A stretch of 64,000 bases of DNA from Candidatus Avoscillospira stercorigallinarum (GTDB taxonomy: Bacteria; Bacillota; Clostridia; Oscillospirales; Oscillospiraceae): assembly GCA_018713205.1 (NCBI GenBank), contig DVFN01000015.1, forward strand, positions 23,553-87,552. Reading direction: 5' to 3'. The position numbers and the translations under genes are program-made. Of this stretch, positions 3,512 to 60,397 are shown in pieces. Under the pieces are notes generated by a model, which saw only the letters and a program-made list of their open reading frames with translations, was not told where the DNA came from and searched no databases. Within the stretch, counting starts at the first letter, position 1. The number at the start of each line of letters is the position of its first letter.

Positions 3512-4219
3512 TCAATCACATTCCTTTCCGTCGCGGTGGTAGAGGGCCCGGCAGGCGTCGGTCTCGCGGCCCTGCGCATCGTAGAGTATGCAGTCCGGCT
3601 CCCAGCGGAGGCCGGGCTTTGCGCCCTTTTTGGCCTCCAGCAGCAGGAGACTCACAGGTCCGCCGGATCGATGGCGGACCAGCTGGAGCCGTTTGGGCTC
3701 CAGCCGCTGGGCCTGGAGGCAGCAGATCAGCTCGGCCAGCCGCTCGGGCCGGTGGACCAGAGAGAAGGTCCCGCCCCAGCGCAGGAGCCATCCGGCGGCC
3801 CGGCAGAGCTCCGCCAGCGGCAGCCAGACTTCGCTCCGGGCCATGGACGCGCCGGGGCCGCTCCCGGCGGGGAAGTAGGGCGGGTTGGACACGGCGGCGT
3901 CCATCTGTCCGGCGGGCAGCAGCGTCTCGATCTGCCGCAGATCCCCCTCGACCACGGTGAAATTCACCCGGTTCTCCCGGGCGTTTTCCCGGGCGGCCTG
4001 GGCGGCCAGCGGGTCCAGCTCGATGCCCGTGACGGCGCAGCCGGGCTCCGAGGCCAGCAGCATCAGGGCCACGGCGCCGCTGCCGCAGCCCAGGTCTGCC
4101 ACGCGGCTCCCCCGGGCAATCCGGGCAAACCCCGCCAGCGCCACCGAATCCGTCCCCAGAGGGAAGCGCCCCGCCGGAGTCCGGAGCGTGACGCCGTTCC
4201 AGAGTGTTTCCAGGGCCAT
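3512..4219 (-). CDS. SAM-dependent N6-adenine methyltransferase, tRNA1(Val) m6A37 (YfiC/YabB-like) family
   Basis: 235 aa. SAM motif VADLGCGSGAV and catalytic NPPY(F) motif. Its stop lies 1 nt from the rsmI start (operon). Confidence 0.75.
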   Translation of the reverse strand: MALETLWNGVTLRTPAGRFPLGTDSVALAGFARIARGSRVADLGCGSGAVALMLLASEPGCAVTGIELDPLAAQAARENARENRVNFTVVEGDLRQIETLLPAGQMDAAVSNPPYFPAGSGPGASMARSEVWLPLAELCRAAGWLLRWGGTFSLVHRPERLAELICCLQAQRLEPKRLQLVRHRSGGPVSLLLLEAKKGAKPGLRWEPDCILYDAQGRETDACRALYHRDGKECD

Positions 4220-4239
4220 AGAGCGCCTCCTCTCTTATC

Positions 4240-4466
4240 GTAGGGGCCGATGCCCACATCGGCCCGCCAGCCCCGCGTGCAAGGAACCCCGCCGACCGCT
4301 GTGGCCTCGGGTGGTCCGTAGGGCGGCATGCCCACATGCCGCCAAAACCCGGTGCGTCGTGTTCCGGACCCCGGTGGTTCCGGGACCTGGGCACGGGAGG
4401 GCATAAAGCCCTCCCCTACAGACACACCTGCAAGGTTGTCGTAGGGGCGGGGTTCATCCCCGCCCG
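4240..4466. repeat. REP/BIME-like cluster A (4 GTAGGG-hairpin units)
   Basis: Units 4240-4266(+) GTAGGGGCCGATGcccaCATCGGCCCG, 4318-4343(+) GTAGGGCGGCATGcccaCATGCCGCC, 4393-4418(-), 4441-4466(+) GTAGGGGCGGGGttcatCCCCGCCCG. Confidence 0.9.
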
Positions 4467-4567: not shown

Positions 4568-4738
4568 TTAGCCCTGGGAAATGGCGCTGTTGGGGCACTC
4601 GCCCTCACAGGTACCGCACTCAACGCAAGTGTCGGCGTCGATGACGTACTTGCCGTCGCCCTCGCTGATGGCGCCCACGGGGCAGGCCTCGGCGCAAGCA
4701 CCGCAGCTGACGCACTCGTCAGAGATGACATATGCCAT
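4568..4738 (-). CDS. 2x[4Fe-4S] ferredoxin (56 aa; below ORF-track size cutoff)
   Basis: Hand translation of the minus strand: MAYVISDECVSCGACAEACPVGAISEGDGKYVIDADTCVECGTCEGECPNSAISQG. Two CxxCxxCxxxCP cluster motifs. RBS GGAGGTG 7 nt upstream. Confidence 0.88.
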   Translation of the reverse strand: MAYVISDECVSCGACAEACPVGAISEGDGKYVIDADTCVECGTCEGECPNSAISQG

Positions 4739-7216: not shown

Positions 7217-7522
7217 GCAGGGGCCGATGCCCACATCGGCCCGCCAGCCTCCGCGCGCAAGGCAGTCCGCCGGCCGCAGGGACCCCGTTTTTGCCGTAGG
7301 GCGGCATGCCCACATGCCGCCAGAACCGGGGAGGATGGGTTGCGGCCTGGGTGGCTGCTGCGGCTGGGCACGGGCGGGCATCAAGCCCGCCCCTACGGAC
7401 CCGCCTGGAAATCCGCCGTAGGGGCGGCCTGTATGGCCGCCCGAAACCAGGTACCGGTGTCCGAGGCAGTAGACCGCACCGACCACCGTCCCTGCCGTAG
7501 GGGCGGATTTTATATCCGCCCG
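7217..7522. repeat. REP/BIME-like cluster B (5 units)
   Basis: Units 7217-7243(+, head GCAGGGG), 7296-7321(+), 7371-7396(-), 7418-7443(+), 7497-7522(+) GTAGGGGCGGATtttatATCCGCCCG. Confidence 0.9.
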
Positions 7523-9630: not shown

Positions 9631-9876
9631 CAGCGAGGGAAGTGAAAGTCTGGGGACGCGCCGTCTCATACGACGCGTCCCTGCAGACTGTCAAAAACCT
9701 CGCTGAAGATGCCTGTAACAGAGCAGCGGGGGAAGTGTGAAGGGGCCCAAGGGCCCCTTCGCGTTCAATCAACACGTATTTTCAAACTTTTTCAAAAGTT
9801 TGAAAATACGCACAGCGTGGCGAAAAGACTTTTTCGACACGCTGTGGAGACGCGCCGTATGATGTGGCGCGTCCCC
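9631..9876. repeat. palindrome-saturated intergenic element (5 consecutive hairpins, inverted 30-nt ends)
   Basis: Hairpins at 9631-9705 (nested CAGCGAGG/AGTCTG/GGGACGCG arms), 9739-9760, 9775-9810 (13-bp perfect stem), 9811-9846 and 9849-9873. 9652-9681 and the reverse complement of 9847-9876 match at 24/30 positions. Confidence 0.7.
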
Positions 9877-9893: not shown

Positions 9894-12800
9894 TTATTCG
9901 GAAAGGGGAGAGCGGTAGAGGAAGGTGACGATTTCCGCTCGGGAGCAGGTCTTGTCAGGGCTGAAGGTGCTGCTGCCGGTGCCCTGGGTGACGTTCTCGG
10001 CCACGGCCCAGAGGACGGCGTCCTTGTAGTAGGCGTTGGCGGGGACATCGGTGAAGGGCACGGTCCCGGAGGAAGCCTTGCCGCTGGCGGCGCGGTAGAG
10101 GAAGGTCACGGCCTCAGCCCGGGAGCAGGTCTTGTCAGGGTTGAAGGTGGTGGCGCTGGTGCCCTGGGTGATCCCCGCTTCCACGGCCCAGAGCACGGCG
10201 TCATAGTAGTAGGCGCTGGAGCTCACGTCGGTGAAGGGGTTTGCCCTGGACTTGGCGGCGGGCTTTCCGGCAGCGCGCCAGAGGAAGGTGACGATCTCGG
10301 CACGGGTGCAGGCCTTGTCGGGGCTGAAGGTATTGCTGCCGGTGCCGTCGGTGACGCCGTTCTCCACGGCCCAGGTCACGGCGTCATAGTAGTAGCTGCG
10401 CTTGGAGACGTCGCGGAAAGTCTGGGTGGGTTGGCTGGGGGTGGTCGCGGACGTGCCGCCGGAGGGCTTGTGCGGCGTGTCGGGCTCGTCGGGATCAACG
10501 GTGGGGAGGTTCAGATTGAGTCCCACGCCCTCCTGGATGGGCAGCACATGGAGCCACTCGCTCTTGGCGGTGTAGGTTTTGCCGTCCTGCTCGTAGGTGG
10601 CCACGATTTGCCACCAGCCTTCCGGCACGTTCCAGGCGTAATTGCCCAGGGCGTCGGAAACCTGGGGGTTGACCTGGCCGTAGTTGGTCATATCAAAGAC
10701 ATAGGCGTTGGCCGCGTCAGCGGTCTCCCCGTTGCCGCCGTAGTACAGCGTGACGGTCGCGCCGGGAACGGGGTTATCCAGCGTGCCGGAGTAGACTGTG
10801 CCGGAGGGGTCCATGATGGGGAGGAAGGTCTGGACGCCGGTGTACTGCGTCTCGCCCGGGAATTCGCCTCCGACGGGGCCAGCTGCCCAGCCGATCCGGT
10901 AGCTCACCGGGGGATTGGAGGTATCACGGTCGGCGAGGTCCAGTTCGCCCTTCCACTGGTTGCGGTCGCCGGGGCCAGGCTCCTCCAGCGGCACTTCTTT
11001 TGTCGTGCCGTCCAGCAGGGTAACATAGATCGTGGCCCACCGAATTTCCCAGCCGTCGGGGACGTCAAATTCCACGGCGTATTCGAACAAGGGCTCGTCG
11101 GGCCAGTAGGTGTAGTAGCTCTGAAGGACCTTGTTGTTGACGTAGTCCACGTCGATGGTCACCGGCACTTTGATGCCGTGGCTGCTGTGGACGATGTTGG
11201 TGATGGAGAGAATAGTCACGCTGACGGAATCGGGATCATAGGTGACGGTCAGCGTCGCGGCGGGCTCGCTGCTGCGGCCCTTGGTGAAATACACCTTGAT
11301 GGTAAAGGTTTCTTTTTGCAGCAGGCTGGCGACCGGCAGGTTCACGGGGATCTTAAAGGTACCCTGAGAACTGACCACGCCCTCATAGATCTTGGAAATC
11401 GTGTTGGCGCTGCTGACATCCAGAGTGGTCTTGTCGCCGGGGGTGCCGTAGCCGCTGACATAGATCAGAGGCACTTTGGTGACGGAAGGCGCGGTGGCCT
11501 GGAAGCCGGAGGCGTTGACCGGCAGAGAGGTCTGATAGGTGCCGGTGCTGGAGGCAGCGGTGGCGGTAATGGTATAATCGCCTTCCTCCAGCGGCTTGAC
11601 GCTGAACCGAATCACCGCCGCGCCGCGCACAGGGATGTCATTCCGCTGAGAGACGCTCACGCCATTGACGGAGAGACTGCCCTCAATCAGCTCCAATCCA
11701 GCGGGAAGCTCGATGGATACGGTGCCGTCGATCACAACGGTATACTTGATGACCACCGGCGCGCCCACGGTCGCCTGGCCGCTGGTGATCTCCATGGCGC
11801 CGGTATAGCCGCTGGGCTCCTGCCCCTCCTCGGAGCTGATGGTGACATCGGTGCAGAGCTTGCCGTCCTCGGTGCTGTCCTCGGTATAGTAGTACCAGTG
11901 ATAGGTGTATTCTGTATCGTTGACAGTCTCCCGCTCTACGACATAAACAAATTGAAGCTCATTGCCAGTGACGTTCGACACGGCGTGGAGCCCTTCGGCA
12001 AGGGTCATCCGATTGACGCCGTCTGTCGTGTTAAAACCGTCCGTACCTTGCCACAATACGGCATTTTGGCCCGTGATATGGATGACGCCGCCCCTGAAGT
12101 CCACACTCGCACCGTCGGAGACGAGACCATAGGTGTTGAAATTCGAGGAACCCAGGAAACTGTGGGTACCGCCGGTAATGGTGAGAGAACCGGTCTCACC
12201 GTCATTGGACGCGGCTAATACTGCAACAGATGGATAGTCAGCACCGTCTCCATTGGTTGTGGCATTCAGGCTGCCGCCGCGGAGCACCGCGCTGCCGTCC
12301 ACGACCATCATGCCGCGAGCGTCGCCATAGGTGTTGATCGTTCCGTCCAGCATGGAAAAGCTGCCGCTGCAATACATACCGACATAATCGGAGGTGACAT
12401 CCAGCGTACCGCCGCTGACGGACATGGAACCCTGACTGCTTTCAAAGATGCCCATGGCCTCGATATAATTACCGGGTTCGAGGACCGAACCGCTGGCATC
12501 CAGCTTCACAGTGCCGCCGGTCTGGTTCATGGAGCCTTGATCCGCAATTTCCAGAGCAATGGCCTTGTGAGCTTCGACTGTCAGACTGCCGCCATAGATA
12601 TTCAGAACGCCGGAAATGGAGTTGAGGCTCCACCAATTGTACGGGGATGCAACATTTTTCACCTGTATTTTGGCGTTGTTACTGATCGTGGCTTCACTAT
12701 TCATATTGACGCTAAGACCCTTAACAGCTTGGAGCACGGTGGTGCCGCCGGTGAAGGTGGCAGTATTGGGCGTGTTGGAGGACATCGCGTCATTGACAGA

Positions 12801-14906
12801 GATTGCGTAGCTGTCAACAGAGTTGTCGTTGGCAGTAATCGTCAGCGTGCCGCCGGACTGAGTCAGGGCGGATGTGCCGAGCACGACGCCGGTTTCGTCC
12901 ATTTCGGTGGCAAGACCGATGCCGTTGCCGTTGGGGAAGTCGATGGTCACATTGCCGCCGGACATGGTCAGCGAACTGCCGCCGCAGATGATGCCGTCGG
13001 TCCAGGCATAGTCGCTGTAATAGGGATTCCCGTCGTCATCATAGCTTGTGCTGTAGTCCACAGGGGCGGTCACGTCAATTTCCAGATCGCCGCCGGAAAT
13101 GGCCATGCTGCTCTGATTCAGATTGATGCCCTGCCAGTAGCTTTCCAGGCTGACATCGGCTGTACCGGCGATCTCCAGGCGGCAGTCCTTTCGGACCGCC
13201 ATACCGGTCATGGCCTTCATCGTGGCGGAACCGCCGCGGAAGACGGCGGAGACAGCGGAGCCGTCTTCCGAATATGTCTCGAGGCCGACGTTTTCAATCT
13301 CGCCGGTGGTGGTGACGGTCAGCGTACCGCCGGACTGGGTGAAGGAGCAGGCACCGGAGGTATTGTCTGTCCAGTTGTTCATGCTGATGCCTGCGCCGTC
13401 TTCATAGTCCAGCGTGACCGTGCCGCCCTGGAGCGAGAACGTGCTTCGGTCCAGGGCAACGGTCCGGACCCGGGCGTAAGTATCCTCTGTCTCGCCGTTC
13501 TCGTCCCAGATCGGACTGCGGTCCGTGGTTTCGTCGGCGTCCATGTCAAGATCCAGCGTACCGCCGGTCATGGTCAGGCTGGAGTCGTTCAAATATACGG
13601 CATGATTATGGGCGGTGATATGGACATCGGCGTTGGAGGCAATGGACACCTGGGAGCCCTGATTGGCCAAGATGCCCGTCTGTCCGGTGAGGCGGGTGGT
13701 ACCGCCGCGGAAGGTCAAGGTGTTCTGGGCATTACGGCCATCTGTGATGATGGCGTTTGTAATTTTGGCGCCTTCGCGGGGCGTTACCTTGAGGCTGCCG
13801 CCGGATTGCGTAAAGGACGCAGTGACCGGCTCGTCGCTGTTGCCGAGCTCAATGCCGTTTCCGTTGCCATAGTGAATGTTAACATTGCCGTCTGTCAGGT
13901 TTACGACGCCGTCGTGGAGATAAATGCCATGGGTCCAGACATCGGCTTCGTCATACGAATTGCCTGCCTCGTCTACTTTCTCTGTGGTGGTAGTAGGCGC
14001 GGTCAAGTCAATATCCAGGCTGCCGCCGGAGATATTGAGTGTGGCGTCCATCAGGACAAGGCCCTCGGAATAGGCGGTGATGTTGACATCTGCGTTGTCT
14101 TGGATGGTCATGGAGTTGCGTGAAACGGATTCTTCGCTGTGCCAAAACTCAATGCTTCCATCGCCGGTAAAAGCAGCATCACCGGAAATGACAACAGTGC
14201 CGGAACAGATGCTCAGAGATTTTTCGCCAGCGGCAAATAATTGGGCGTTGCCGGTGACCGTGAGGCCCACACCGCTTCCGTCCGAGCCGATGGCGCTGGT
14301 CATAGTTTGAATGGGATTGCCGTTTTCATCCTCCCAGCCCATGTAGGTACCGTTGATTTGCGCCGTGACGACGGCCTGGTCCTGGATGGTCAGCGAACTG
14401 CCTTCGCACAGCAGGATGGCGTTGCCGTCGTTGGAGGCTTGGGTCGTAGCGGTCAGAGAACCGCTGCCGGTCATGGTGACGTTGACACCGCCGCCGAAGC
14501 TGATGCAGTGGTAGGTGCCGTTGGGATCAATTTCTGCATCTTGATATGCTGTAAAGATGTTTTGCCCCTCCAGTACGATCTTCAGATCCGAGGTGGGCAG
14601 CCAGTAGTCGTCAGGCCCCAACTGAAACAGTGTATGAAAGGTTTCCAAATTCGCGCCGTTGAAGGTCAGCGTATTGGAGTCCAAGTCATAGCTGACGCCG
14701 TCGGGAAGTGCAGTCTTTGATTCATCCTCACAGAAAATGACTTGCTCTCCCTGCTCGTTCAGTTCGACAGAGTACATCAAATCATCGAACAAAAAACTTG
14801 CTTGTTGCGGGGGCTGGACCTCGTCCGCAGTTCCCGCCGCCAGCGCCAGGGGCGCCAGAACCAGCAGCAGGACCAGGGTCAGGACCAGCAGAATGCTTCG
14901 TTTCAT
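9894..14906 (-). CDS. giant cell-surface protein with C-terminal triple SLH anchor
   Basis: Start trimmed to ATG 14906 (MKRSILLVLTLVLLLVLAPLALAAG signal peptide) after AGGAGG. About 156-aa tandem repeats (motif FTQSGG(S/T)L.VT) in about 12620-14510. Cna-B/carboxypeptidase-regulatory-like domain. Three SLH repeats at 9912-10418. Confidence 0.85.
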   Translation of the reverse strand: MKRSILLVLTLVLLLVLAPLALAAGTADEVQPPQQASFLFDDLMYSVELNEQGEQVIFCEDESKTALPDGVSYDLDSNTLTFNGANLETFHTLFQLGPDDYWLPTSDLKIVLEGQNIFTAYQDAEIDPNGTYHCISFGGGVNVTMTGSGSLTATTQASNDGNAILLCEGSSLTIQDQAVVTAQINGTYMGWEDENGNPIQTMTSAIGSDGSGVGLTVTGNAQLFAAGEKSLSICSGTVVISGDAAFTGDGSIEFWHSEESVSRNSMTIQDNADVNITAYSEGLVLMDATLNISGGSLDIDLTAPTTTTEKVDEAGNSYDEADVWTHGIYLHDGVVNLTDGNVNIHYGNGNGIELGNSDEPVTASFTQSGGSLKVTPREGAKITNAIITDGRNAQNTLTFRGGTTRLTGQTGILANQGSQVSIASNADVHITAHNHAVYLNDSSLTMTGGTLDLDMDADETTDRSPIWDENGETEDTYARVRTVALDRSTFSLQGGTVTLDYEDGAGISMNNWTDNTSGACSFTQSGGTLTVTTTGEIENVGLETYSEDGSAVSAVFRGGSATMKAMTGMAVRKDCRLEIAGTADVSLESYWQGINLNQSSMAISGGDLEIDVTAPVDYSTSYDDDGNPYYSDYAWTDGIICGGSSLTMSGGNVTIDFPNGNGIGLATEMDETGVVLGTSALTQSGGTLTITANDNSVDSYAISVNDAMSSNTPNTATFTGGTTVLQAVKGLSVNMNSEATISNNAKIQVKNVASPYNWWSLNSISGVLNIYGGSLTVEAHKAIALEIADQGSMNQTGGTVKLDASGSVLEPGNYIEAMGIFESSQGSMSVSGGTLDVTSDYVGMYCSGSFSMLDGTINTYGDARGMMVVDGSAVLRGGSLNATTNGDGADYPSVAVLAASNDGETGSLTITGGTHSFLGSSNFNTYGLVSDGASVDFRGGVIHITGQNAVLWQGTDGFNTTDGVNRMTLAEGLHAVSNVTGNELQFVYVVERETVNDTEYTYHWYYYTEDSTEDGKLCTDVTISSEEGQEPSGYTGAMEITSGQATVGAPVVIKYTVVIDGTVSIELPAGLELIEGSLSVNGVSVSQRNDIPVRGAAVIRFSVKPLEEGDYTITATAASSTGTYQTSLPVNASGFQATAPSVTKVPLIYVSGYGTPGDKTTLDVSSANTISKIYEGVVSSQGTFKIPVNLPVASLLQKETFTIKVYFTKGRSSEPAATLTVTYDPDSVSVTILSITNIVHSSHGIKVPVTIDVDYVNNKVLQSYYTYWPDEPLFEYAVEFDVPDGWEIRWATIYVTLLDGTTKEVPLEEPGPGDRNQWKGELDLADRDTSNPPVSYRIGWAAGPVGGEFPGETQYTGVQTFLPIMDPSGTVYSGTLDNPVPGATVTLYYGGNGETADAANAYVFDMTNYGQVNPQVSDALGNYAWNVPEGWWQIVATYEQDGKTYTAKSEWLHVLPIQEGVGLNLNLPTVDPDEPDTPHKPSGGTSATTPSQPTQTFRDVSKRSYYYDAVTWAVENGVTDGTGSNTFSPDKACTRAEIVTFLWRAAGKPAAKSRANPFTDVSSSAYYYDAVLWAVEAGITQGTSATTFNPDKTCSRAEAVTFLYRAASGKASSGTVPFTDVPANAYYKDAVLWAVAENVTQGTGSSTFSPDKTCSRAEIVTFLYRSPLSE

Positions 14907-15094
14907 ATGCTTCCTCCTCATTCGTATTGGAATGGGCGAAACCGTGCCGCCCAATTCCGCGCATAAAAATACCCTATGCACCATTATAGCGGCACAGAGG
15001 GTATAATTGGTATGCAGGCTGCATACTTTTGCAAAAAAACATATTTGTGCCAGCCCTACGGCCAATCGCGGACCGGCGCGACGTGGCCGGATGC

Positions 15095-15202
15095 CTGAGA
15101 GGGAAGGCTCCCCTTGAGGGGAGCTGTCAGCCGCAGGCTGACTGAGAGGTGTTGCCGCACCGAAAGTTTGCCGCAGGGCATCGGCGAGCGCAGAGGGCGC
15201 TC
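15095..15202. repeat. double-hairpin element flanked by CTGAGAGG direct repeats
   Basis: GCTCCCC-ttga-GGGGAGC (15107-15124) and GTCAGCC-gca-GGCTGAC (15126-15142), bracketed by CTGAGAGG at 15095-15102 and 15142-15149. A third hairpin GAGCGC-agagg-GCGCTC lies at 15186-15202. Confidence 0.6.
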
Positions 15203-15236
15203 CACGAGGCGACACACTGTTTTGCACACGGGATCT

Positions 15237-15566
15237 GGCGGACGCGCCATGCGCGCCCCTACGGCAGGAGGACCCAACGGGCCGTGGTGGGAACCGGCAC
15301 CCGGTTTCGGGCGGATATGCAATCCGCCCCTACGGCAAGATGGCTGACGCGGCGTAGGGGCGCATTGTATATGCGCCCTTGCCCAGCTGCCGGAACCAAT
15401 AGGGCTGCGACAACAGCGCACCAGGTTCCGACGGCATGTGGGCATGCCGCCCTACAAGATTCGACAAAGGCGCGGTGGGAATCGGGGGCCTGCACGGGCG
15501 GCCATAAAGGCCGCCCCTACAGGAAAACCGGAGGCATGGCGTAGGGGCGGATTATCTATCCGCCCG
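15237..15566. repeat. REP/BIME-like cluster C (6 units)
   Basis: Units 15237-15262(-), 15308-15333(-), 15354-15378(+), 15433-15455(-), 15495-15520(-), 15541-15566(+). Confidence 0.9.
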
Positions 15567-19935: not shown

Positions 19936-19962
19936 GTAGGGGCCGATGCCTACATCGGCCCG
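19936..19962 (+). repeat. single REP-like unit (cluster D) between iorB and paaK
   Basis: GTAGGGGCCGATGcctaCATCGGCCCG, followed by a second hairpin ACCCGCC-ggag-GCGGGT (19964-19980) that abuts the iorB stop. Confidence 0.85.
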
Positions 19963-23907: not shown

Positions 23908-23979
23908 CGGGCGGGCATGAAGCCCGCCCCTACGGCCATGTCGAATGCGTGTCGTAGGGGCGGCCTTTATGGCCGCCCG
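23908..23979. repeat. REP/BIME-like cluster E (2 head-to-head units)
   Basis: Units 23908-23933(-) and 23954-23979(+) GTAGGGGCGGCCtttatGGCCGCCCG. The CCCTAC and GTAGGG heads are 20 nt apart. Confidence 0.9.
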
Positions 23980-33955: not shown

Positions 33956-34484
33956 CGGGCGGCCTGTATGGCCGCCCGAGCAGGCCCCCGATTCCCGCCG
34001 TACCCCCGCCGAATCTCGTAGGGCGGCATGCCCACATGCCGCCATGACCGGGTTTCGACGATTGCGAGCCAGGCGATTCCGGCAGCCTGGTTAGGCGGGG
34101 TGTGGGCACCCCGCCCTACGGACCAGGTCAATGGTACGTCGTAGGGGCGGCCTTTATGGCCGCCCGAGGAGACAGGCGATTTTTACCGCACTCCCGCCGA
34201 ATCTCGTAGGGCGGCATGCCCACATGCCGCCATGACCGGGTTTCGACGATTGCAAGCCTGGCAATTCCGGCAGCCTGGTTAGGCGGGGTGTGGGCACCCC
34301 GCCCTACGGACCAGGTCGAAAGCGCGGCGTAGGGGCGGCCTTTATGGCCGCCCGAGGAGACTGGCGATTTTTACCGCACTCCCGCCGAATCTCGTAGGGC
34401 GGCATGCCCACATGCCGCCATGACCGGGCTTCGACGACCGCAAGTCTGTCCGAAGGCGCCGTAGGGGCGGCTATCAGCCGCCCG
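33956..34484. repeat. REP/BIME-like cluster F (9 units; contains 188-bp tandem duplication)
   Basis: Units 33956-33978 (degenerate head), 34018-34043(+), 34094-34119(-), 34141-34166(+), 34206-34231(+), 34282-34307(-), 34329-34354(+), 34394-34419(+), 34461-34484(+). Confidence 0.92.
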
Positions 34485-39920: not shown

Positions 39921-40287
39921 AGGCGGCAAATCCGCCCCTACATGCACACGCTGGCGTTTCCCACTGTAGGGGCGCATTTTATATGCGCCCGGACCGCACC
40001 GCCGGAACCACCGGGCAAGCAGTCAACGCGGCCCTGACCGGGCGGCTGATAGCCGCCCCTACGGCGCATGTTCGACCTGGTCCGTAGGGCGGGGTGCCCA
40101 CACCCCGCCAAACCAGGCCGCCGGAACTACCAGGCTAGCGGTCAACGAGACCCGGTCGTGGCGGCATGTGGGCATGCCGCCCTACAGTGTTCGGCGGGAA
40201 TCAGGGGCGCATTCGGGCGGATATATAATCCGCCCCTACATGTGCCCGCTGCCGTTTCCCGTCGTAGGGGCGGCTATCAGCCGCCCG
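39921..40287. repeat. REP/BIME-like cluster G (7 units)
   Basis: Units 39921-39941(-), 39966-39991(+), 40039-40062(-), 40084-40109(+), 40160-40185(-), 40214-40239(-), 40264-40287(+). Confidence 0.9.
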
Positions 40288-45833: not shown

Positions 45834-46136
45834 GTAGGGCGGCATGCCCACATGCCGCCATGGCTGAGCTGCGATGATTGCAAGTCTGGTGGTCCCGTTG
45901 GCTCGGTTTGGCGGGGTGTGGGCACCCCGCCCTACGGACCAGGTTGATGGCACGCCGTAGGGGCGGCTATTAGCCGCCCGCCCAGGCCCGCGATTCCCGC
46001 TGCGCCCGCGCCGAACGCCGTAGGGCCCCGCAGACCGTAGGCCTGGTGATCCCGGTGGTGCGGCACGGGCGGCTGCTAGCCGCCCCTACGACGGAAACCG
46101 GCATACACCTGTAGGGGCGGATTGTATATCCGCCCG
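45834..46136. repeat. REP/BIME-like cluster H (5 clear + 2 degenerate units)
   Basis: Units 45834-45859(+), 45910-45935(-), 45957-45980(+), 46066-46089(-), 46111-46136(+). Degenerate heads occur near 46019 and 46165. The linker CCCGCGATTCCCGCC..CGCCGAACGCC is repeated at 45800 and 45987. Confidence 0.9.
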
Positions 46137-51817: not shown

Positions 51818-51835
51818 GCGCCCGCGCCCATGCGA

Positions 51836-51910
51836 GTGAAATCGCCGGTGGCGGTGAAATATGGCTGCGCCAAGTGAAATGTCCCTGCGGGACGTGAAAT
51901 GCCTCCGGCG
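51836..51910 (+). repeat. tandem GTGAAAT + mini-hairpin array (4 units, ~20-bp period)
   Basis: GTGAAAT at 51836, 51854, 51874 and 51894. The first three copies are each followed by a different 4-5 bp mini-palindrome (CGCC-ggt-GGCG, TGGC-tgc-GCCA, GTCCC-tgc-GGGAC). The fourth is followed only by a weak 3-bp one (GCC-tcc-GGC). Confidence 0.75.
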
Positions 51911-51963: not shown

Positions 51964-52172
51964 GTAGGGGCGGCTATCAGCCGCCCGGACCGCGTTGCCG
52001 AAACCGCCAAGCCTGCGATTTGCGCACCACGGCAGCGGCGGCATGTGGGCATGCCGCCCTACGGTGTTCGGCGAACGTGCGGTGGAACTCACAGCCTTAC
52101 TCGGGCGGCTGCTAGCCGCCCCTACGACCAGCCGTTGATCCGTACCGTAGGGCGGGGTGCCCACACCCCGCC
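51964..52172. repeat. REP/BIME-like cluster I (4 units)
   Basis: Units 51964-51987(+), 52037-52062(-), 52102-52125(-), 52147-52172(+). Confidence 0.9.
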
Positions 52173-55310: not shown

Positions 55311-56498
55311 GTGGCAGAGATCACGCTCACCCATGTGAAAAAAATATATGATAAATCCGTGGTGGCAGTCCAGGACTTCTGCATGGAGATTCAGGACAAG
55401 GAGTTCATCGTCCTGGTTGGCCCCTCGGGCTGCGGCAAGTCCACCACCCTGCGGATGATCGCCGGCCTGGAGGAAATCTCCGCCGGAGAAATCGCCATCG
55501 GCGGCAAGGTGGTCAACCGGGTTCCGCCAAAGGACCGGGATATCGCCATGGTCTTCCAGGACTACGCCCTCTATCCCCATATGACGGTTTACGACAATAT
55601 TGCCTATGGCCTGAAGCTGCGCAAATTCCCCCGGCGGGTCATCGACCAGAAGGTCCGCGAGGCCGCCGAGATTTTGGATATCACGGATCTTTTGAAGCGC
55701 AAGCCCAAGGCCCTCTCCGGCGGCCAGCGCCAGCGCGTCGCCATCGGCCGGGCCATTGTCCGCAGCCCCAAGGCGTTCCTGATGGACGAGCCCCTCTCCA
55801 ACCTGGACGCCAAGCTCCGCAACCAGATGCGGACGGAGATCATCAAGCTCCGCCAGCGGATTCAGACCACCTTTGTCTACGTGACCCACGACCAGACCGA
55901 GGCCATGACCCTGGGCGACCGCATTGTGATTATGAAGGAGGGCTATGTCCAGCAGATCGGCACGCCGCGGCAGGTCTTCCACGATCCCAATAATCTGTTT
56001 GTGGCGGGCTTTATCGGTACGCCGCAGATGAACTTCTTCCACGGGGAGCTCCACCGGGAGGGCGAGACGTACTTCCTGGAGCTGGGCGGCACGCGGCTGG
56101 AGATTGCCGAGGAGAAGCAGCAGCACCTGCGGCAGTACGATGTCCCGGCCCAGCCGGTGGTAGCGGGAATCCGCCCCGAGCATGTCCTCCTGACCGAGGG
56201 CGAGGGCTTTTCTGGTCAAGTGGACGTCATTGAGATGATGGGCTCCAATACCCATCTCCACGTCCGCTTCGGCGACGAGGAGTGCGTCATCGTGGTCCCC
56301 GACGGCGATGAGCCGGTCCGGGAATTCCAGCATGGCGAGACCGTCCAATTTATGTTCCACGCCGACCGAATCCACCTGTTCAGCCGCGAAACCGAGCAGA
56401 ACCTGGAGCACGCCCCGGCGGCCCCCGCCGCAGAGGAACCGGCCCCAGCTACAGAAGAACCGGCTCCGGCAGCCGCCGAAGCCCCCAGCGAACCCTGA
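55311..56498 (+). CDS. sugar-type ABC transporter ATP-binding protein (MalK/UgpC/MsmX-like)
   Basis: 395 aa with a GTG start. Walker A GPSGCGKST, signature LSGGQRQRVAIGRA, Walker B FLMDEPLS, a TOBE-like C-domain, and a P/A/E-rich 34-aa tail. Confidence 0.9.
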   Translation: MAEITLTHVKKIYDKSVVAVQDFCMEIQDKEFIVLVGPSGCGKSTTLRMIAGLEEISAGEIAIGGKVVNRVPPKDRDIAMVFQDYALYPHMTVYDNIAYGLKLRKFPRRVIDQKVREAAEILDITDLLKRKPKALSGGQRQRVAIGRAIVRSPKAFLMDEPLSNLDAKLRNQMRTEIIKLRQRIQTTFVYVTHDQTEAMTLGDRIVIMKEGYVQQIGTPRQVFHDPNNLFVAGFIGTPQMNFFHGELHREGETYFLELGGTRLEIAEEKQQHLRQYDVPAQPVVAGIRPEHVLLTEGEGFSGQVDVIEMMGSNTHLHVRFGDEECVIVVPDGDEPVREFQHGETVQFMFHADRIHLFSRETEQNLEHAPAAPAAEEPAPATEEPAPAAAEAPSEP

Positions 56499-56536: not shown

Positions 56537-56692
56537 TGCCCACCAGCAAACCCGCCCCTACGCCGCGTTTTCGACCTGGCTCGTAGGGCGGGGTGCCCAC
56601 ACCCCGCCAAACCGCATCGCCGGGACCACCAGGCCCGCAATTCACGCACCCCGGCCATCAACCCCTTCGTAGGGGCGGCTATCAGCCGCCCG
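56519..56692. repeat. REP/BIME-like cluster J (2 clear units + 1 chimeric)
   Basis: Chimeric/degenerate unit 56519-56560(-), then 56583-56608(+) GTAGGGCGGGGTGcccaCACCCCGCC and 56669-56692(+) GTAGGGGCGGCTatcAGCCGCCCG. Confidence 0.85.
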
Positions 56693-57839: not shown

Positions 57840-57925
57840 CGGGCGGCCATAAAGGCCGCCCCTACGCCGTGCTTTCGACCTGGTCCGAAGGGCGGGGTGC
57901 CGGAACTGCCAGGCCCGCAATCCAC
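57840..57925. repeat. REP/BIME-like cluster K (1 intact + 1 internally deleted unit)
   Basis: Unit 57840-57865(-). At 57886 GAAGGGCGGGGTGC joins directly to linker sequence CGGAACTGCCAGGCCCGCAAT, a truncated version of the 40084-40135 arrangement. Confidence 0.8.
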
Positions 57926-60217: not shown

Positions 60218-60397
60218 GTAGGGGCCGATGCCCACATCGGCCCGCTGGGTTCCGGGTCTGAGGCAGTACGCCGGCCGCACCGGCTATCAATCCAATTGTA
60301 GGGGCGGATTATATATCCGCCCGGACCCGGGTGCGTTCTGTTCCGGGCCCGGTGGTTGCGGTGGATGGGCAGGGCGCATATTACAATGCGCCCCTAC
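60218..60397. repeat. REP/BIME-like cluster L (3 units)
   Basis: Units 60218-60244(+), 60298-60323(+) GTAGGGGCGGATtatatATCCGCCCG, 60372-60397(-). Confidence 0.9.

What the first reader, a model, noticed from the sequence alone, without database searches (positions are those of the whole stretch)
34018..34307. BIME/REPIN-like higher-order architecture: ~100-bp inverted doublets and fixed ~21-nt head-to-head spacers
The hairpin units are not randomly placed. Ten pairs consist of a forward unit followed by a reverse unit, with an almost constant outer length of 97-102 bp: 4318-4418, 7296-7396, 15354-15455, 34018-34119, 34206-34307, 39966-40062, 40084-40185, 45834-45935, 51964-52062 and 60298-60397. 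The internal linker of about 50 nt is itself conserved in either orientation (for example AAACCAGGC.GCCGGAA...CCAGGC). Where a reverse unit meets the next forward unit, the CCCTAC and GTAGGG heads are separated by 20-22 nt in at least 11 cases. Examples are 34119/34141, 45935/45957, 40062/84, 52125/47, 7396/7418, 15333/54, 15520/41 and 23933/54, often with the sequence GGACCAGGTYRA. Alternating REP orientation with alternating long and short linkers is how E. coli BIMEs are built. Inverted REP doublets of fixed length are the proposed mobile unit (REPIN) of RAYT systems. Here the two arms of a doublet often carry different stem variants.
Basis: partly seen in the sequence, partly recalled or inferred. 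Interest (0 to 1): 0.7.

Follow-up and report, generated by a model that had tools for sequence, protein, structure and literature searches.

The report
REP/BIME-type repeat arrays in Oscillospiraceae
The region is a genuine, highly ordered array of small GTAG-tagged DNA hairpins (REP elements) of the kind long known from E. coli and Pseudomonas. Here it sits in a Gram-positive gut bacterium, and following it up uncovered a matching transposase-like gene that unusually carries the same hairpins inside its own coding sequence.

Summary
The window comes from a chromosome like that of Candidatus Avoscillospira stercorigallinarum (Oscillospiraceae). It holds about 47 GTAGGG-headed hairpins in 12 intergenic clusters.

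- **Doublets:** ten GTAG-outward doublets measure 97-102 bp, against 0.02 expected by chance.
- **Inward junctions:** twelve GTAG-inward junctions have 20-21-nt spacers, against 0 expected.
- **Linker:** the 49-51-nt doublet linker is homologous and directional in all ten doublets.
- **Direct junctions:** two further fixed junctions join same-orientation units, of 40 nt and 52-54 nt.

This is a REP/BIME-type system.

The genus encodes a RAYT/TnpA_REP-like HUH-Y1 protein (P0124). The closest solved structure is 4ER8. Its ORF contains a type A' REP, and its stop codon is the GTAG head of a 102-bp doublet.

The REPIN claim is only partly supported. Between strains, arrays differ by whole modules of 123, 156, 188, 205 or 273 bp (2-4 REPs). 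Only the 123-bp module equals a doublet plus spacer.

The kind is known, but I found no description of it in Bacillota.

Unexpected side result: in 51 of 80 relatives of this RAYT, two near-identical inverted REPs lie inside the ORF, on either side of the HUH motif. They co-vary between genes.

The parts
33957..34483 (.). Focal BIME-like array between addB (start 33869, - strand) and ftsZ (stop 34590, - strand). Layout: headless B > 40 > A(34018-34043) 50 < A'(34094-34119) 21 > B(34141-34165) 40 > A(34206-34231) 50 < A'(34282-34307) 21 > B(34329-34353) 40 > A(34394-34419) 41 > C(34461-34483). This is a 188-bp three-REP module repeated 2.6 times.
   Evidence: Other strains carry 1.5-9 units at this locus.
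34018..34119 (+). GTAG-outward doublet A > 50-nt linker < A' (102 bp). It can fold as one long hairpin.
   Evidence: (-35.8 kcal/mol, z = -6.2)
34206..34307 (+). Second copy of the same doublet (102 bp)
4240..4465 (.). Array > A''(4240) 52 > A(4318) 51 < B(4419) 21 > B(4441). Contains doublet 4318-4419. Lies between divergent genes.
7217..7521 (.). Array > A''(head GCAGGG) 53 > A 50 < B 21 > B 54 > B'. Contains doublet 7296-7396. Lies between the convergent clpB-like and serpin genes.
15240..15565 (.). Array < (23-nt unit) 46 < B' 20 > B'' 51 < A 40 < B 20 > B'. Contains doublet 15354-15455.
   Evidence: Identical in close strains.
19936..19961 (+). Isolated single A''-type unit, GTAGGGGCCGATGCCTACATCGGCCC
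23909..23978 (.). Isolated GTAG-inward pair < B 20 > B
39921..40286 (.). Array (degenerate unit) 24 > B'' 49 < C 21 > A' 50 < A 29 < B' 24 > C. Contains doublets 39966-40062 and 40084-40185. In other strains a 205-bp module [> B 49 < B 59 < A' 21] is present 1 or 4 times.
45834..46135 (.). Array > A 50 < A' 21 > C 87 < C 21 > B'. Contains doublet 45834-45935. Strains differ by a 156-bp module [87 < C 21 > B'].
51964..52172 (.). Array > C 50 < A 40 < C 21 > A'. Contains doublet 51964-52062. An alternative allele has > B' 50 < B'' 21 > A' and lacks the adjacent Gut-1 RNA.
56556..56691 (.). (Degenerate unit <) 21 > A' 60 > C. Other strains have 1-2 extra copies of a 273-bp four-REP module [> B 50 < A 40 < B 21 > A' 60].
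57841..57865 (-). Isolated single B unit
60218..60397 (.). Array > A'' 54 > B' 49 < B''. Contains doublet 60298-60397. Same module order as arrays 4240 and 7217.

Best explanation
These are repetitive extragenic palindromes (REPs) of the GTAG-tagged class, assembled into BIME-like mosaic arrays in an Oscillospiraceae (Bacillota) chromosome.

**Anatomy (shown).** Each unit is a GTAGGG head plus a GC-rich 8-9-bp stem and a 3-5-nt loop. Units are joined by a small set of junction modules:
- a GTAG-outward heterodimer with a conserved, directional 49-51-nt linker (97-102 bp overall)
- a GTAG-inward junction of 20-21 nt
- two direct junctions, of 40 nt and 52-54 nt

**Mechanism (inferred).** This follows the E. 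coli TnpA_REP and IS200/IS605 paradigm. A RAYT-type HUH-Y1 nuclease encoded elsewhere in the genome (P0124 in this genus) would bind the GTAG+hairpin on single-stranded DNA. It would cleave at C|T sites, including CC|TAC, and join strands, seeding REPs or doublets at new intergenic sites. Arrays would then expand, contract and homogenise. That could happen by RAYT-mediated strand exchange, or by ordinary unequal recombination or slippage between same-orientation REPs.

What is shown: the anatomy, the strain-to-strain module copy-number changes, and the existence, fold and REP association of the RAYT. Binding, cleavage and transposition are inferred.
For: - **REP anatomy and excess over chance:**
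- **Fixed junction lengths:**
- **Homologous directional linker:**
- **All units extragenic:**
- **Stem variants keep pairing through double changes:**, with an ascertainment caveat.
- **Copy-number variation by whole modules at five loci,** including long-read contigs.
- **Same architecture in sister species:** L078 (Ca. A. avicola) shows 49/40/21. L014 shows doublets with a 43-44-nt linker and 21-nt spacer.
- **RAYT P0124:**
  - HUH and Tyr are invariant.
  - Best PDB sequence hit is 4ER8, E = 3e-10.
  - AF2 model has pLDDT 83, and its top Foldseek hit is 4ER8, TM 0.55/0.61.
  - Pfam Y1_Tnp scores above cut-off.
  - The gene lies between whiA and dnaE in Avoscillospira contigs.
  - An exact type A' REP lies inside the ORF, a 102-bp A'/A doublet starts at its stop codon, and a type B unit lies 3.7 kb away.
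- **E. coli parallels** (heterodimers, L/S linkers, variable tandem number per locus, C|T cleavage and strand exchange by TnpA_REP): PMC3333891.
- **General GTAG REP dimer and cluster organisation:** PMC3733652.
Against: - No RAYT gene lies in the window itself.
- The RAYT locus is assigned to the genus. A response regulator on L139 is identical to the MAG protein HIQ70345.1. I have not shown that the locus lies on the same chromosome as the window.
- P0124 scores below NCBIfam's curated RAYT cut-off (59 versus 80 bits). Its second in-gene hairpin is degenerate, so it may be inactive.
- Module copy-number changes are equally explained by host recombination without any RAYT.
- No clean empty-versus-filled site for a REP or doublet was found. 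Transposition is therefore not demonstrated.
- Most strain comparisons use metagenome assemblies, which can collapse repeats.
Confidence: 0.8

Rival explanations
1. REPIN model. The roughly 100-bp GTAG-outward doublet is itself the replicating mobile unit, and single hairpins and arrays are decay or aggregation products of doublets.
For: - All ten doublets share a homologous linker, so they descend from a common about 100-bp ancestor.
- A/A' doublets fold as one long hairpin.
- A doublet abuts the RAYT stop codon, and one strain has two copies with a period of 123 bp = doublet + 21 nt.
- L014 shows pure tandem doublets.
Against: - No doublet in the window is isolated. Homology runs about 30 nt left and about 12 nt right of the doublet.
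- Six of ten doublets have arms of different classes and fold as two separate hairpins.
- Four of five polymorphic loci change by 156-, 188-, 205- or 273-bp modules, not by doublets.
- The isolated elements present are singletons (19936, 57841) and a GTAG-inward pair (23909-23978).
Confidence: 0.3
2. Host-recombination only. The hairpins are relics of an old invasion, and the RAYT is domesticated or inactive. The present architecture and variation arise purely from unequal crossing-over, slippage and gene conversion between repeats.
For: - All observed polymorphisms are tandem gains or losses of modules bounded by same-orientation repeats. There are also unit conversions (C to B) and a loop flip.
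- Small clusters are invariant among close strains.
- P0124 has lost its second in-gene hairpin.
Against: - Units are near-identical at distant loci and across several families of Oscillospirales, which argues for recent spread or strong constraint.
- The RAYT ORF is intact in dozens of contigs, and REPs sit tightly around it.
Confidence: 0.3
3. Host-selected functional elements. The hairpin arrays are kept mainly because they act as transcript-end stabilisers or terminators, or as protein-binding or supercoiling sites. Regular spacing would then reflect protein or RNA-structure constraints.
For: - Location is strictly intergenic, often just downstream of genes.
- Stems are preserved by compensatory changes.
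- The roughly 21-nt inward spacer recurs in other species.
- Such roles are documented for E. coli REPs (PMC3333891, PMC3733652).
Against: - Arrays also lie between divergent promoters (4240, 39921, 60218).
- Copy number at a locus varies from 1.5 to more than 15 units between strains with identical flanking proteins. This is hard to reconcile with a tuned function.
- No Rfam family matches.
Confidence: 0.15

Closest known systems
E. coli REP/BIME elements with TnpA_REP (RayT, PDB 4ER8)
   Same: - A GTAG head at the foot of a GC-rich hairpin.
- Dimers made of two different REP variants.
- Distinct linkers for the two junction types.
- Tandem arrays whose copy number differs between strains.
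- A cognate HUH-Y1 protein with REPs next to its gene.
   Different: - Host is a spore-forming Bacillota anaerobe.
- Hairpins are shorter (23-26 nt) with perfect stems.
- At least three length classes are mixed within a single array.
- Arrays have three- or four-unit periods with direct junctions, not strict Y/Z alternation.
- The RAYT gene carries a REP inside its ORF, whereas E. coli rayT has REPs only outside.
- The protein scores below the NCBIfam RAYT equivalog cut-off.
Pseudomonas fluorescens REPIN-RAYT systems (Bertels & Rainey 2011, PMC3116915)
   Same: - Inverted REP doublets of fixed length that can form a long hairpin.
- Single-copy, syntenic RAYT with flanking doublet(s).
   Different: - Here the doublets are heterodimers embedded in larger conserved modules.
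- Copy-number changes mostly involve modules other than the doublet.
- No isolated doublets occur in 64 kb.
GTAG REP families with HH/TT/HT dimers and clusters, e.g. Stenotrophomonas maltophilia (Di Nocera 2013, PMC3733652)
   Same: - GTAG-outward dimers have conserved spacers, while GTAG-inward spacers are more variable.
- Trimers arise as a singleton plus a dimer.
- Clusters are made of reiterated dimers or singletons with flanking DNA.
- Hybrid dimers occur between families.
   Different: That survey found GTAG repeats in Proteobacteria, Cyanobacteria, Chloroflexi and the PVC group, not in Firmicutes. RAYT genes there are described as flanked by REPs or TIRs, not as containing them.
IS200/IS605 insertion sequences (TnpA Y1; IS608, ISDra2)
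   Same: The same HUH-Y1 fold (Foldseek hits 2-30) and subterminal hairpins recognised on ssDNA.
   Different: - Here the gene is single-copy and sits in a housekeeping slot (whiA-dnaE).
- The hairpins are on opposite strands and lie inside the ORF.
- There is no tnpB.
- The short hairpins, not the gene, are the multi-copy entity.

Membership tests
REP (GTAG-tagged repetitive extragenic palindrome) | A conserved 5' GTAG tetranucleotide at the foot of a 20-40-nt GC-rich stem-loop | tested here: met
   About 47 units read GTAGGG + 8-9-bp stem + 3-5-nt loop. GTAGGG occurs 63 times against 25.6 expected.
REP (GTAG-tagged repetitive extragenic palindrome) | High copy number, confined to extragenic DNA | tested here: met
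   46 of 46 strict units lie in the 12.4% non-coding DNA of the window. Only 64 kb plus related loci were seen, not the whole genome.
REP (GTAG-tagged repetitive extragenic palindrome) | Stem variants preserve pairing (compensatory changes) | tested here: met
   For 61 distinct 23-nt units, 5 of 8 pairs change on both sides; covariation score 0.61 against 0.14 shuffled. Caveat: the units were selected by a hairpin finder.
BIME (bacterial interspersed mosaic element) | Clusters of REPs with regular, orientation-specific linkers carrying conserved motifs | tested here: met
   49-51 nt outward, 20-21 nt inward, 40 and 52-54 nt direct; the linkers are homologous.
BIME (bacterial interspersed mosaic element) | Strict alternation of REP orientation within the array | tested here: not met
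   The focal array reads + - + | + - +. Twelve direct (same-orientation) junctions occur in the window.
BIME (bacterial interspersed mosaic element) | [quoted passage not shown] | tested here: met
   Modules of 123-273 bp are present 0-4 times at five loci.
BIME (bacterial interspersed mosaic element) | Binding by IHF, DNA gyrase or Pol I | not testable with these tools
REPIN | Two inverted REPs plus spacer forming a single long hairpin | tested here: inconclusive
   All three A/A' doublets folded form one long hairpin. The two mixed- or B-class doublets folded form two separate hairpins. Four of the ten doublets are A/A'.
REPIN | The doublet is the unit that is gained or lost | tested here: inconclusive
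   Only 1 of 5 polymorphic loci changes by doublet + spacer (123 bp). The others change by 156, 188, 205 or 273 bp. No empty or filled unique site was found.
RAYT / TnpA_REP | HUH motif and catalytic tyrosine in a Y1 fold closest to TnpA_REP | tested here: met
   H90, H92 and Y156 are invariant in A3. 4ER8 is the best hit by sequence profile (E = 2.9e-10) and by fold. Pfam Y1_Tnp scores 25.1, above the cut-off of 23.
RAYT / TnpA_REP | Score above the curated NCBIfam equivalog cut-off (NF047646) | tested here: not met
   59-69 bits against a cut-off of 80. This is a distant subfamily.
RAYT / TnpA_REP | Gene associated with its cognate REPs (REPtron) | tested here: met
   In L139, an A' unit lies inside the ORF and an A'/A doublet lies at the stop codon. 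Family-wide there are 74 hairpins within 300-nt flanks and 115 inside genes, against 0.18 per kb elsewhere.
RAYT / TnpA_REP | Single-copy, syntenic (vertically inherited) gene | tested here: inconclusive
   The same murB-rapZ-cofD-whiA-[RAYT]-dnaE slot is occupied in two lineages, but the two proteins are only 37% identical. Copy number per genome was not measurable.
RAYT / TnpA_REP | Cleaves and rejoins REP ssDNA | not testable with these tools
   Needs biochemistry.

The most novel reading that the evidence does not exclude
In the Oscillospirales/Clostridia RAYT family linked to these REPs, the cognate REP pair is a built-in, co-evolving part of the gene.

- **Arrangement:** two near-identical GTAGGG hairpins sit on opposite strands inside the ORF, with GTAG pointing outward and an outer span of about 197 bp. 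They bracket the HUH-coding segment.
- **What they encode:** they specify the otherwise odd peptides V-G-x6-P and G-x6-P-T.
- **Conservation:** the pair is kept at the DNA or RNA level. The evidence is concerted change of both copies between genes, and retention of the hairpin in a shifted reading frame.

The reading not excluded is that this in-gene 'REPIN' is functional. It could be a protected master copy that seeds the dispersed REP/BIME arrays, or an autoregulatory or self-recognition site. That would differ from the classical REPtron, where REPs only flank the gene.
Probability: 0.45. Interest if true: 0.75.

Novelty: new member of a known kind. Interest (0 to 1): 0.55.

Why it matters
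REP/BIME/REPIN-RAYT systems have been characterised almost entirely in Proteobacteria. The surveys I could read list no GTAG REPs in Firmicutes, and they report no REPs near the RAYT group that includes Clostridia.

This window shows a dense, highly ordered REP system in a common gut Oscillospiraceae. Identical 26-nt units are shared across many uncultured Oscillospirales.

**Practical consequences**
- These arrays break or mis-join short-read metagenome assemblies. One contig here switches locus exactly at a REP.
- They are hypervariable strain markers.

**Conceptual consequence.** The associated RAYT family carries its REPs inside its own ORF. This offers a new handle on two old questions: where REPs come from, and how a RAYT stays matched to its REP.

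Tried and rejected
1. **RAYT in the window.** None found. Pfam was run on 44 ORFs. phmmer with E. coli RayT and the L055 RAYT against all ORFs of 70 aa or more found nothing.
2. **'The 102-bp doublet is an internally deleted RAYT gene core.'** A doublet HMM run with nhmmer against 20 RAYT genes aligns only the 26-30-nt hairpins. The linker is not detectably gene-derived, so I rejected this.
3. **CRISPR, tRNA or a known RNA family.** The 'spacers' are conserved and the units alternate strand. There are no tRNAs and no Rfam hit in the arrays.
4. **Universality of the 50-nt linker.** In 95 loci from other Oscillospirales, outward gaps peak at 0-3 nt. Only the 20-23-nt inward spacer recurs.
5. **Empty sites.** Close strains have identical small clusters, and the look-up with the GtrA protein found nothing. 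Insertion boundaries and target preference could therefore not be defined.
6. **Exact in-gene counterparts for type B** (VGAAFMAA...). None among about 410 retrieved RAYT proteins.
7. **Naming the species of the RAYT locus from the RAYT itself.** The cluster carries no names. It was resolved only through neighbouring genes.
8. One search failed because of bad coordinates and was repeated.

Full report
**Observation**

The focal region and the whole window contain GTAGGG-headed hairpins far above chance: the hexamer occurs 63 times against 25.6 expected. A hairpin scan gives about 47 bona fide units in three length classes:
- A, 26 nt, e.g. GTAGGGCGGCATGCCCACATGCCGCC. Compensatory variants are A' (GGGGTG..CACCCC) and A'' (GCCGATG..CATCGGC).
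- B, 25 nt, e.g. GTAGGGGCGGCCTTTATGGCCGCCC, with variants B' and B''.
- C, 23 nt, GTAGGGGCGGCTATCAGCCGCCC.

Twelve CCCTAC-N19-22-GTAGGG junctions exist against 0 expected.

Sorted by orientation:
- GTAG-outward gaps are 49-51 nt in 10 of 11 cases.
- GTAG-inward gaps are 20-21 nt in 11 of 12 cases.
One is 40-41 nt (B or C tail to A head, consensus ..GCAGGCCCCCGATTCCC.CCGC.CC...CGAATCT). The other is 52-54 nt (A'' to the next unit).

Aligning the ten doublets (A1) shows that the linker is homologous and directional in all of them. The 'left' arm is type A in 7 of 10 and the 'right' arm varies. Homology continues about 30 nt left of the doublet and about 12 nt right of it (GGACCAGGTCGA). All ten doublets are heterodimers.

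TRF reports 33957-34448 as a 188-bp repeat, 2.6 copies, 91% identical. Its period holds three REPs (A > 50 < A' 21 > B 40), so orientation does not strictly alternate. None of the 46 strict units lies in a gene, although 87.6% of the window is coding.

**Organism and context**

The window is about 65% G+C. It encodes AddAB, FtsZ/FtsQ, an S-layer-homology (SLH-domain) protein and SpoIIIA proteins. Its FtsZ is identical to HIQ68921.1 of the MAG 'Candidatus Avoscillospira stercorigallinarum' (Oscillospiraceae).

Nearly all were in gut MAGs labelled Oscillospiraceae, Acutalibacteraceae, 'Monoglobus' or Clostridia. The unit is therefore widespread in Oscillospirales.

**Folding**

As ssDNA, A/A' doublets fold into one long REPIN-like hairpin (-33 to -37 kcal/mol, z about -5 to -6). 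Doublets with arms of different classes fold as two separate hairpins.

**Strain comparisons**

I used exact-protein look-ups of flanking genes, which return orthologous loci from other strains. These included three long-read contigs, which show the same spacings. Differences are whole modules that differ from locus to locus:
- **Response regulator/aminotransferase locus:** 205 bp [> B 49 < B 59 < A' 21], present 0 (window), 1 or 4 times.
- **GtrA/PFK locus:** 156 bp [87 < C 21 > B'].
- **Downstream of 55311-56498:** 273 bp [> B 50 < A 40 < B 21 > A' 60], 0-2 extra copies.
- **ftsZ/addB locus:** the 188-bp module. Arrays range from 1.5 to 9 units.
- **Downstream of the RAYT gene:** 123 bp (doublet + 21 nt), one or two copies.

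The same array position can hold a C unit in one strain and a B unit in another. One hairpin has its loop flipped between strains. One intergenic region exists as two alleles with different doublets. Small clusters are invariant among very close strains.

So the doublet is the unit of copy-number change at only one of five loci. I found no clean empty or filled site. This behaviour matches what is described for E. coli BIME-2 arrays: tandem copies are conserved within a locus, and their number varies between strains (PMC3333891).

Caveat: most contigs are short-read metagenome assemblies, which can collapse repeats. One contig (L005) leaves the locus exactly at a REP.

**The transposase**

No Y1 gene lies in the window. 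Among the loci fetched with the REP pattern, one (L055) holds a 165-aa HUH-Y1 protein related to E. coli RayT. Its relatives include P0124. This protein lies between whiA and dnaE on 63% G+C chicken-gut contigs (L139-L144).

These contigs belong to Avoscillospira:
- The response regulator on L139 is identical to HIQ70345.1.
- The MurB cluster contains HIQ70339.1 of Ca. A. stercorigallinarum.
- The longest contig carrying these proteins (1,177,600 bp) has the same length as the longest contig carrying the window's FtsZ.

P0124 carries an exact type A' REP inside its ORF. Its TAG stop codon is the GTAG head of a 102-bp A'/A doublet, which is followed by a 21-nt spacer. An exact type B unit lies 3.7 kb away. 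This is the same REP system as in the window.

Family membership:
- HUH and Tyr are invariant (A3).
- 4ER8 is the best PDB hit by sequence profile (E = 2.9e-10) and by fold (AF2 pLDDT 83; Foldseek TM 0.55/0.61).
- Pfam Y1_Tnp scores just above its cut-off.
- NCBIfam's RAYT equivalog is matched at E about 1e-16 but below its cut-off.

I therefore call it RAYT-like and a distant subfamily, not a curated equivalog.

**Mechanism**

The anatomy, the RAYT and the module dynamics are shown. The following steps are inferred from the E. coli TnpA_REP work (PMC3333891): binding of GTAG+hairpin on ssDNA, cleavage at C|T including CC|TAC, and strand exchange producing dimers and amplification. Host unequal recombination explains the module copy-number changes equally well and probably contributes.

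**Side result: REPs inside the RAYT gene**

In L055, two type A units lie inside the ORF on opposite strands, with GTAG pointing outward. They encode VGRDAHIPP and GGMRASRPT and bracket the HUH motif. Evidence from 80 RAYT-like genes fetched from metagenomes:
- 51 have a GTAGGG hairpin at both positions.
- The two copies in one gene are 92.5% identical on average, and 18 of 50 pairs are identical. Copies from different genes are 54% identical. The outer span is about 197 bp.
- The hairpin types differ widely between genes, always with paired changes.
- V-G (from GTAGGG) and P-T (from CCCTAC) are the invariant residues of these loops.
- The GTAGG head is in frame 0 in 54 of 57 genes. In three high-GC genes, including P0124, the same hairpin is kept in a shifted frame and encodes an unrelated peptide (compare L136 and L139).
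- The two loops are low-confidence surface segments in the model.
- Hairpin density is 2.9 per kb inside these genes against 0.18 per kb more than 300 nt away. A further 74 lie within the 300-nt flanks.
- E. coli rayT has REPs only outside its ORF.

The window's REP types have exact in-gene counterparts:
- A' in P0127 and P0124.
- A'' in L170.
- C in P0357 and P0371.

P0357 occupies the same whiA-dnaE slot in a 57.5% G+C relative, yet is only 37% identical to P0124. Some relatives carry 2-4 tandem 54-nt copies of the REP-containing segment inside the ORF. A test of whether the doublet linker derives from the gene interior was negative.

**Comparison with the literature**

GTAG REPs, HH/TT/HT dimers, trimers, clusters, hybrid dimers and conserved GTAG-outward spacers are all described (PMC3733652). 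So are BIME linkers and copy-number variability (PMC3333891) and REPINs (PMC3116915).

The 2013 survey lists Proteobacteria, Cyanobacteria, Chloroflexi and the PVC group as hosts, not Firmicutes. Bertels 2017 notes Group 1 RAYTs 'also found in the Clostridia'. Quentin 2018 found no REPs within ±1000 nt of subclass 2.1/2.3 genes. Searches for REPs in Oscillospiraceae or Clostridia, or for intragenic REPs in RAYT genes, returned nothing relevant. The held library is incomplete, so absence is not proof.

**Verdict**

The finding is real and correctly classed as REP/BIME-like. It is a new member of a known kind, in a phylum where I found no description of it. The specific REPIN claim (doublet = unit of change) is only weakly supported. 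The most interesting outcome is the RAYT family with embedded, concertedly evolving REP pairs, which lies outside the window.

Noticed in passing
L055:4398-4423(+) and 4575-4600(-); L136:5848-5873/6025-6050; L139:4181-4206; L226:4113-4309; L145-L224: RAYT-like (Y1/HUH) genes of Clostridia carry two near-identical GTAGGG hairpins inside the ORF, on opposite strands, bracketing the HUH motif. Outer span is about 197 bp. This holds for 51 of 80 genes. The two copies co-vary between genes, and three genes keep the hairpin in a shifted reading frame.
   Followed up: partly
window 9684-9844 (-); L008:~4200-4365; L125:4231-4258 (probe match only); L132:~300-470 and ~10875-11040: A second, AT-richer repeat of about 161-165 bp (CAGCGTGTCGAAAAAGTC...GGTTTTTCGACAGTCTG). 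The four copies examined sit inside a GC-rich hairpin, which is either a REP of type A' or C or an unrelated terminator-like hairpin. The whole 20-26-bp hairpin is duplicated on both sides. Strains L002-L004 and L007 show the uninterrupted REP, i.e. the empty site. In the two REP cases the left junction falls at CCC|TAC. It looks like a hairpin-targeting MITE.
   Followed up: partly
window 51834-51905 (+): Rfam Gut-1 RNA (RF01706, 59 bits), with four GTGAAAT repeats, lies directly upstream of a REP array. The alternative allele of this intergenic region in other strains (L126, L128-L130, L133, L135) lacks it entirely.
   Followed up: partly
L005:~4458 (same contig as L108/L131): A metagenome contig follows the window sequence through the first doublet of the ftsZ-addB array. 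It then jumps at CCCTAC to an unrelated yajC/tgt locus. This is either a rearrangement at a REP or an assembly chimera caused by the repeats.
   Followed up: no
proteins P0042, P0043, P0049, P0066: Some RAYT homologues contain 2-4 tandem 18-aa (54-nt) copies of PVGRGALTPPQDALTTT. The REP-bearing segment has therefore been amplified in frame inside the ORF.
   Followed up: no
L001:~4270-4295 versus window 33960-33980: The same B-type stem carries its loop in opposite orientation in two strains (CCTGTATGG versus CCATACAGG). In one of them the GTAG head is gained or lost. This suggests inversion or replacement of single hairpins.
   Followed up: no
window 9912-10395: A 180-bp tandem repeat, 2.7 copies at 77% identity, lies inside the 1777-aa SLH-domain surface protein gene (9894-15227, - strand).
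   Followed up: no
L029, L049: Exact type A REP units also occur on contigs of MAGs labelled Leptolinea (Chloroflexota) and Bacteroidaceae. This may be mis-binning of Oscillospirales contigs rather than true occurrence.
   Followed up: no
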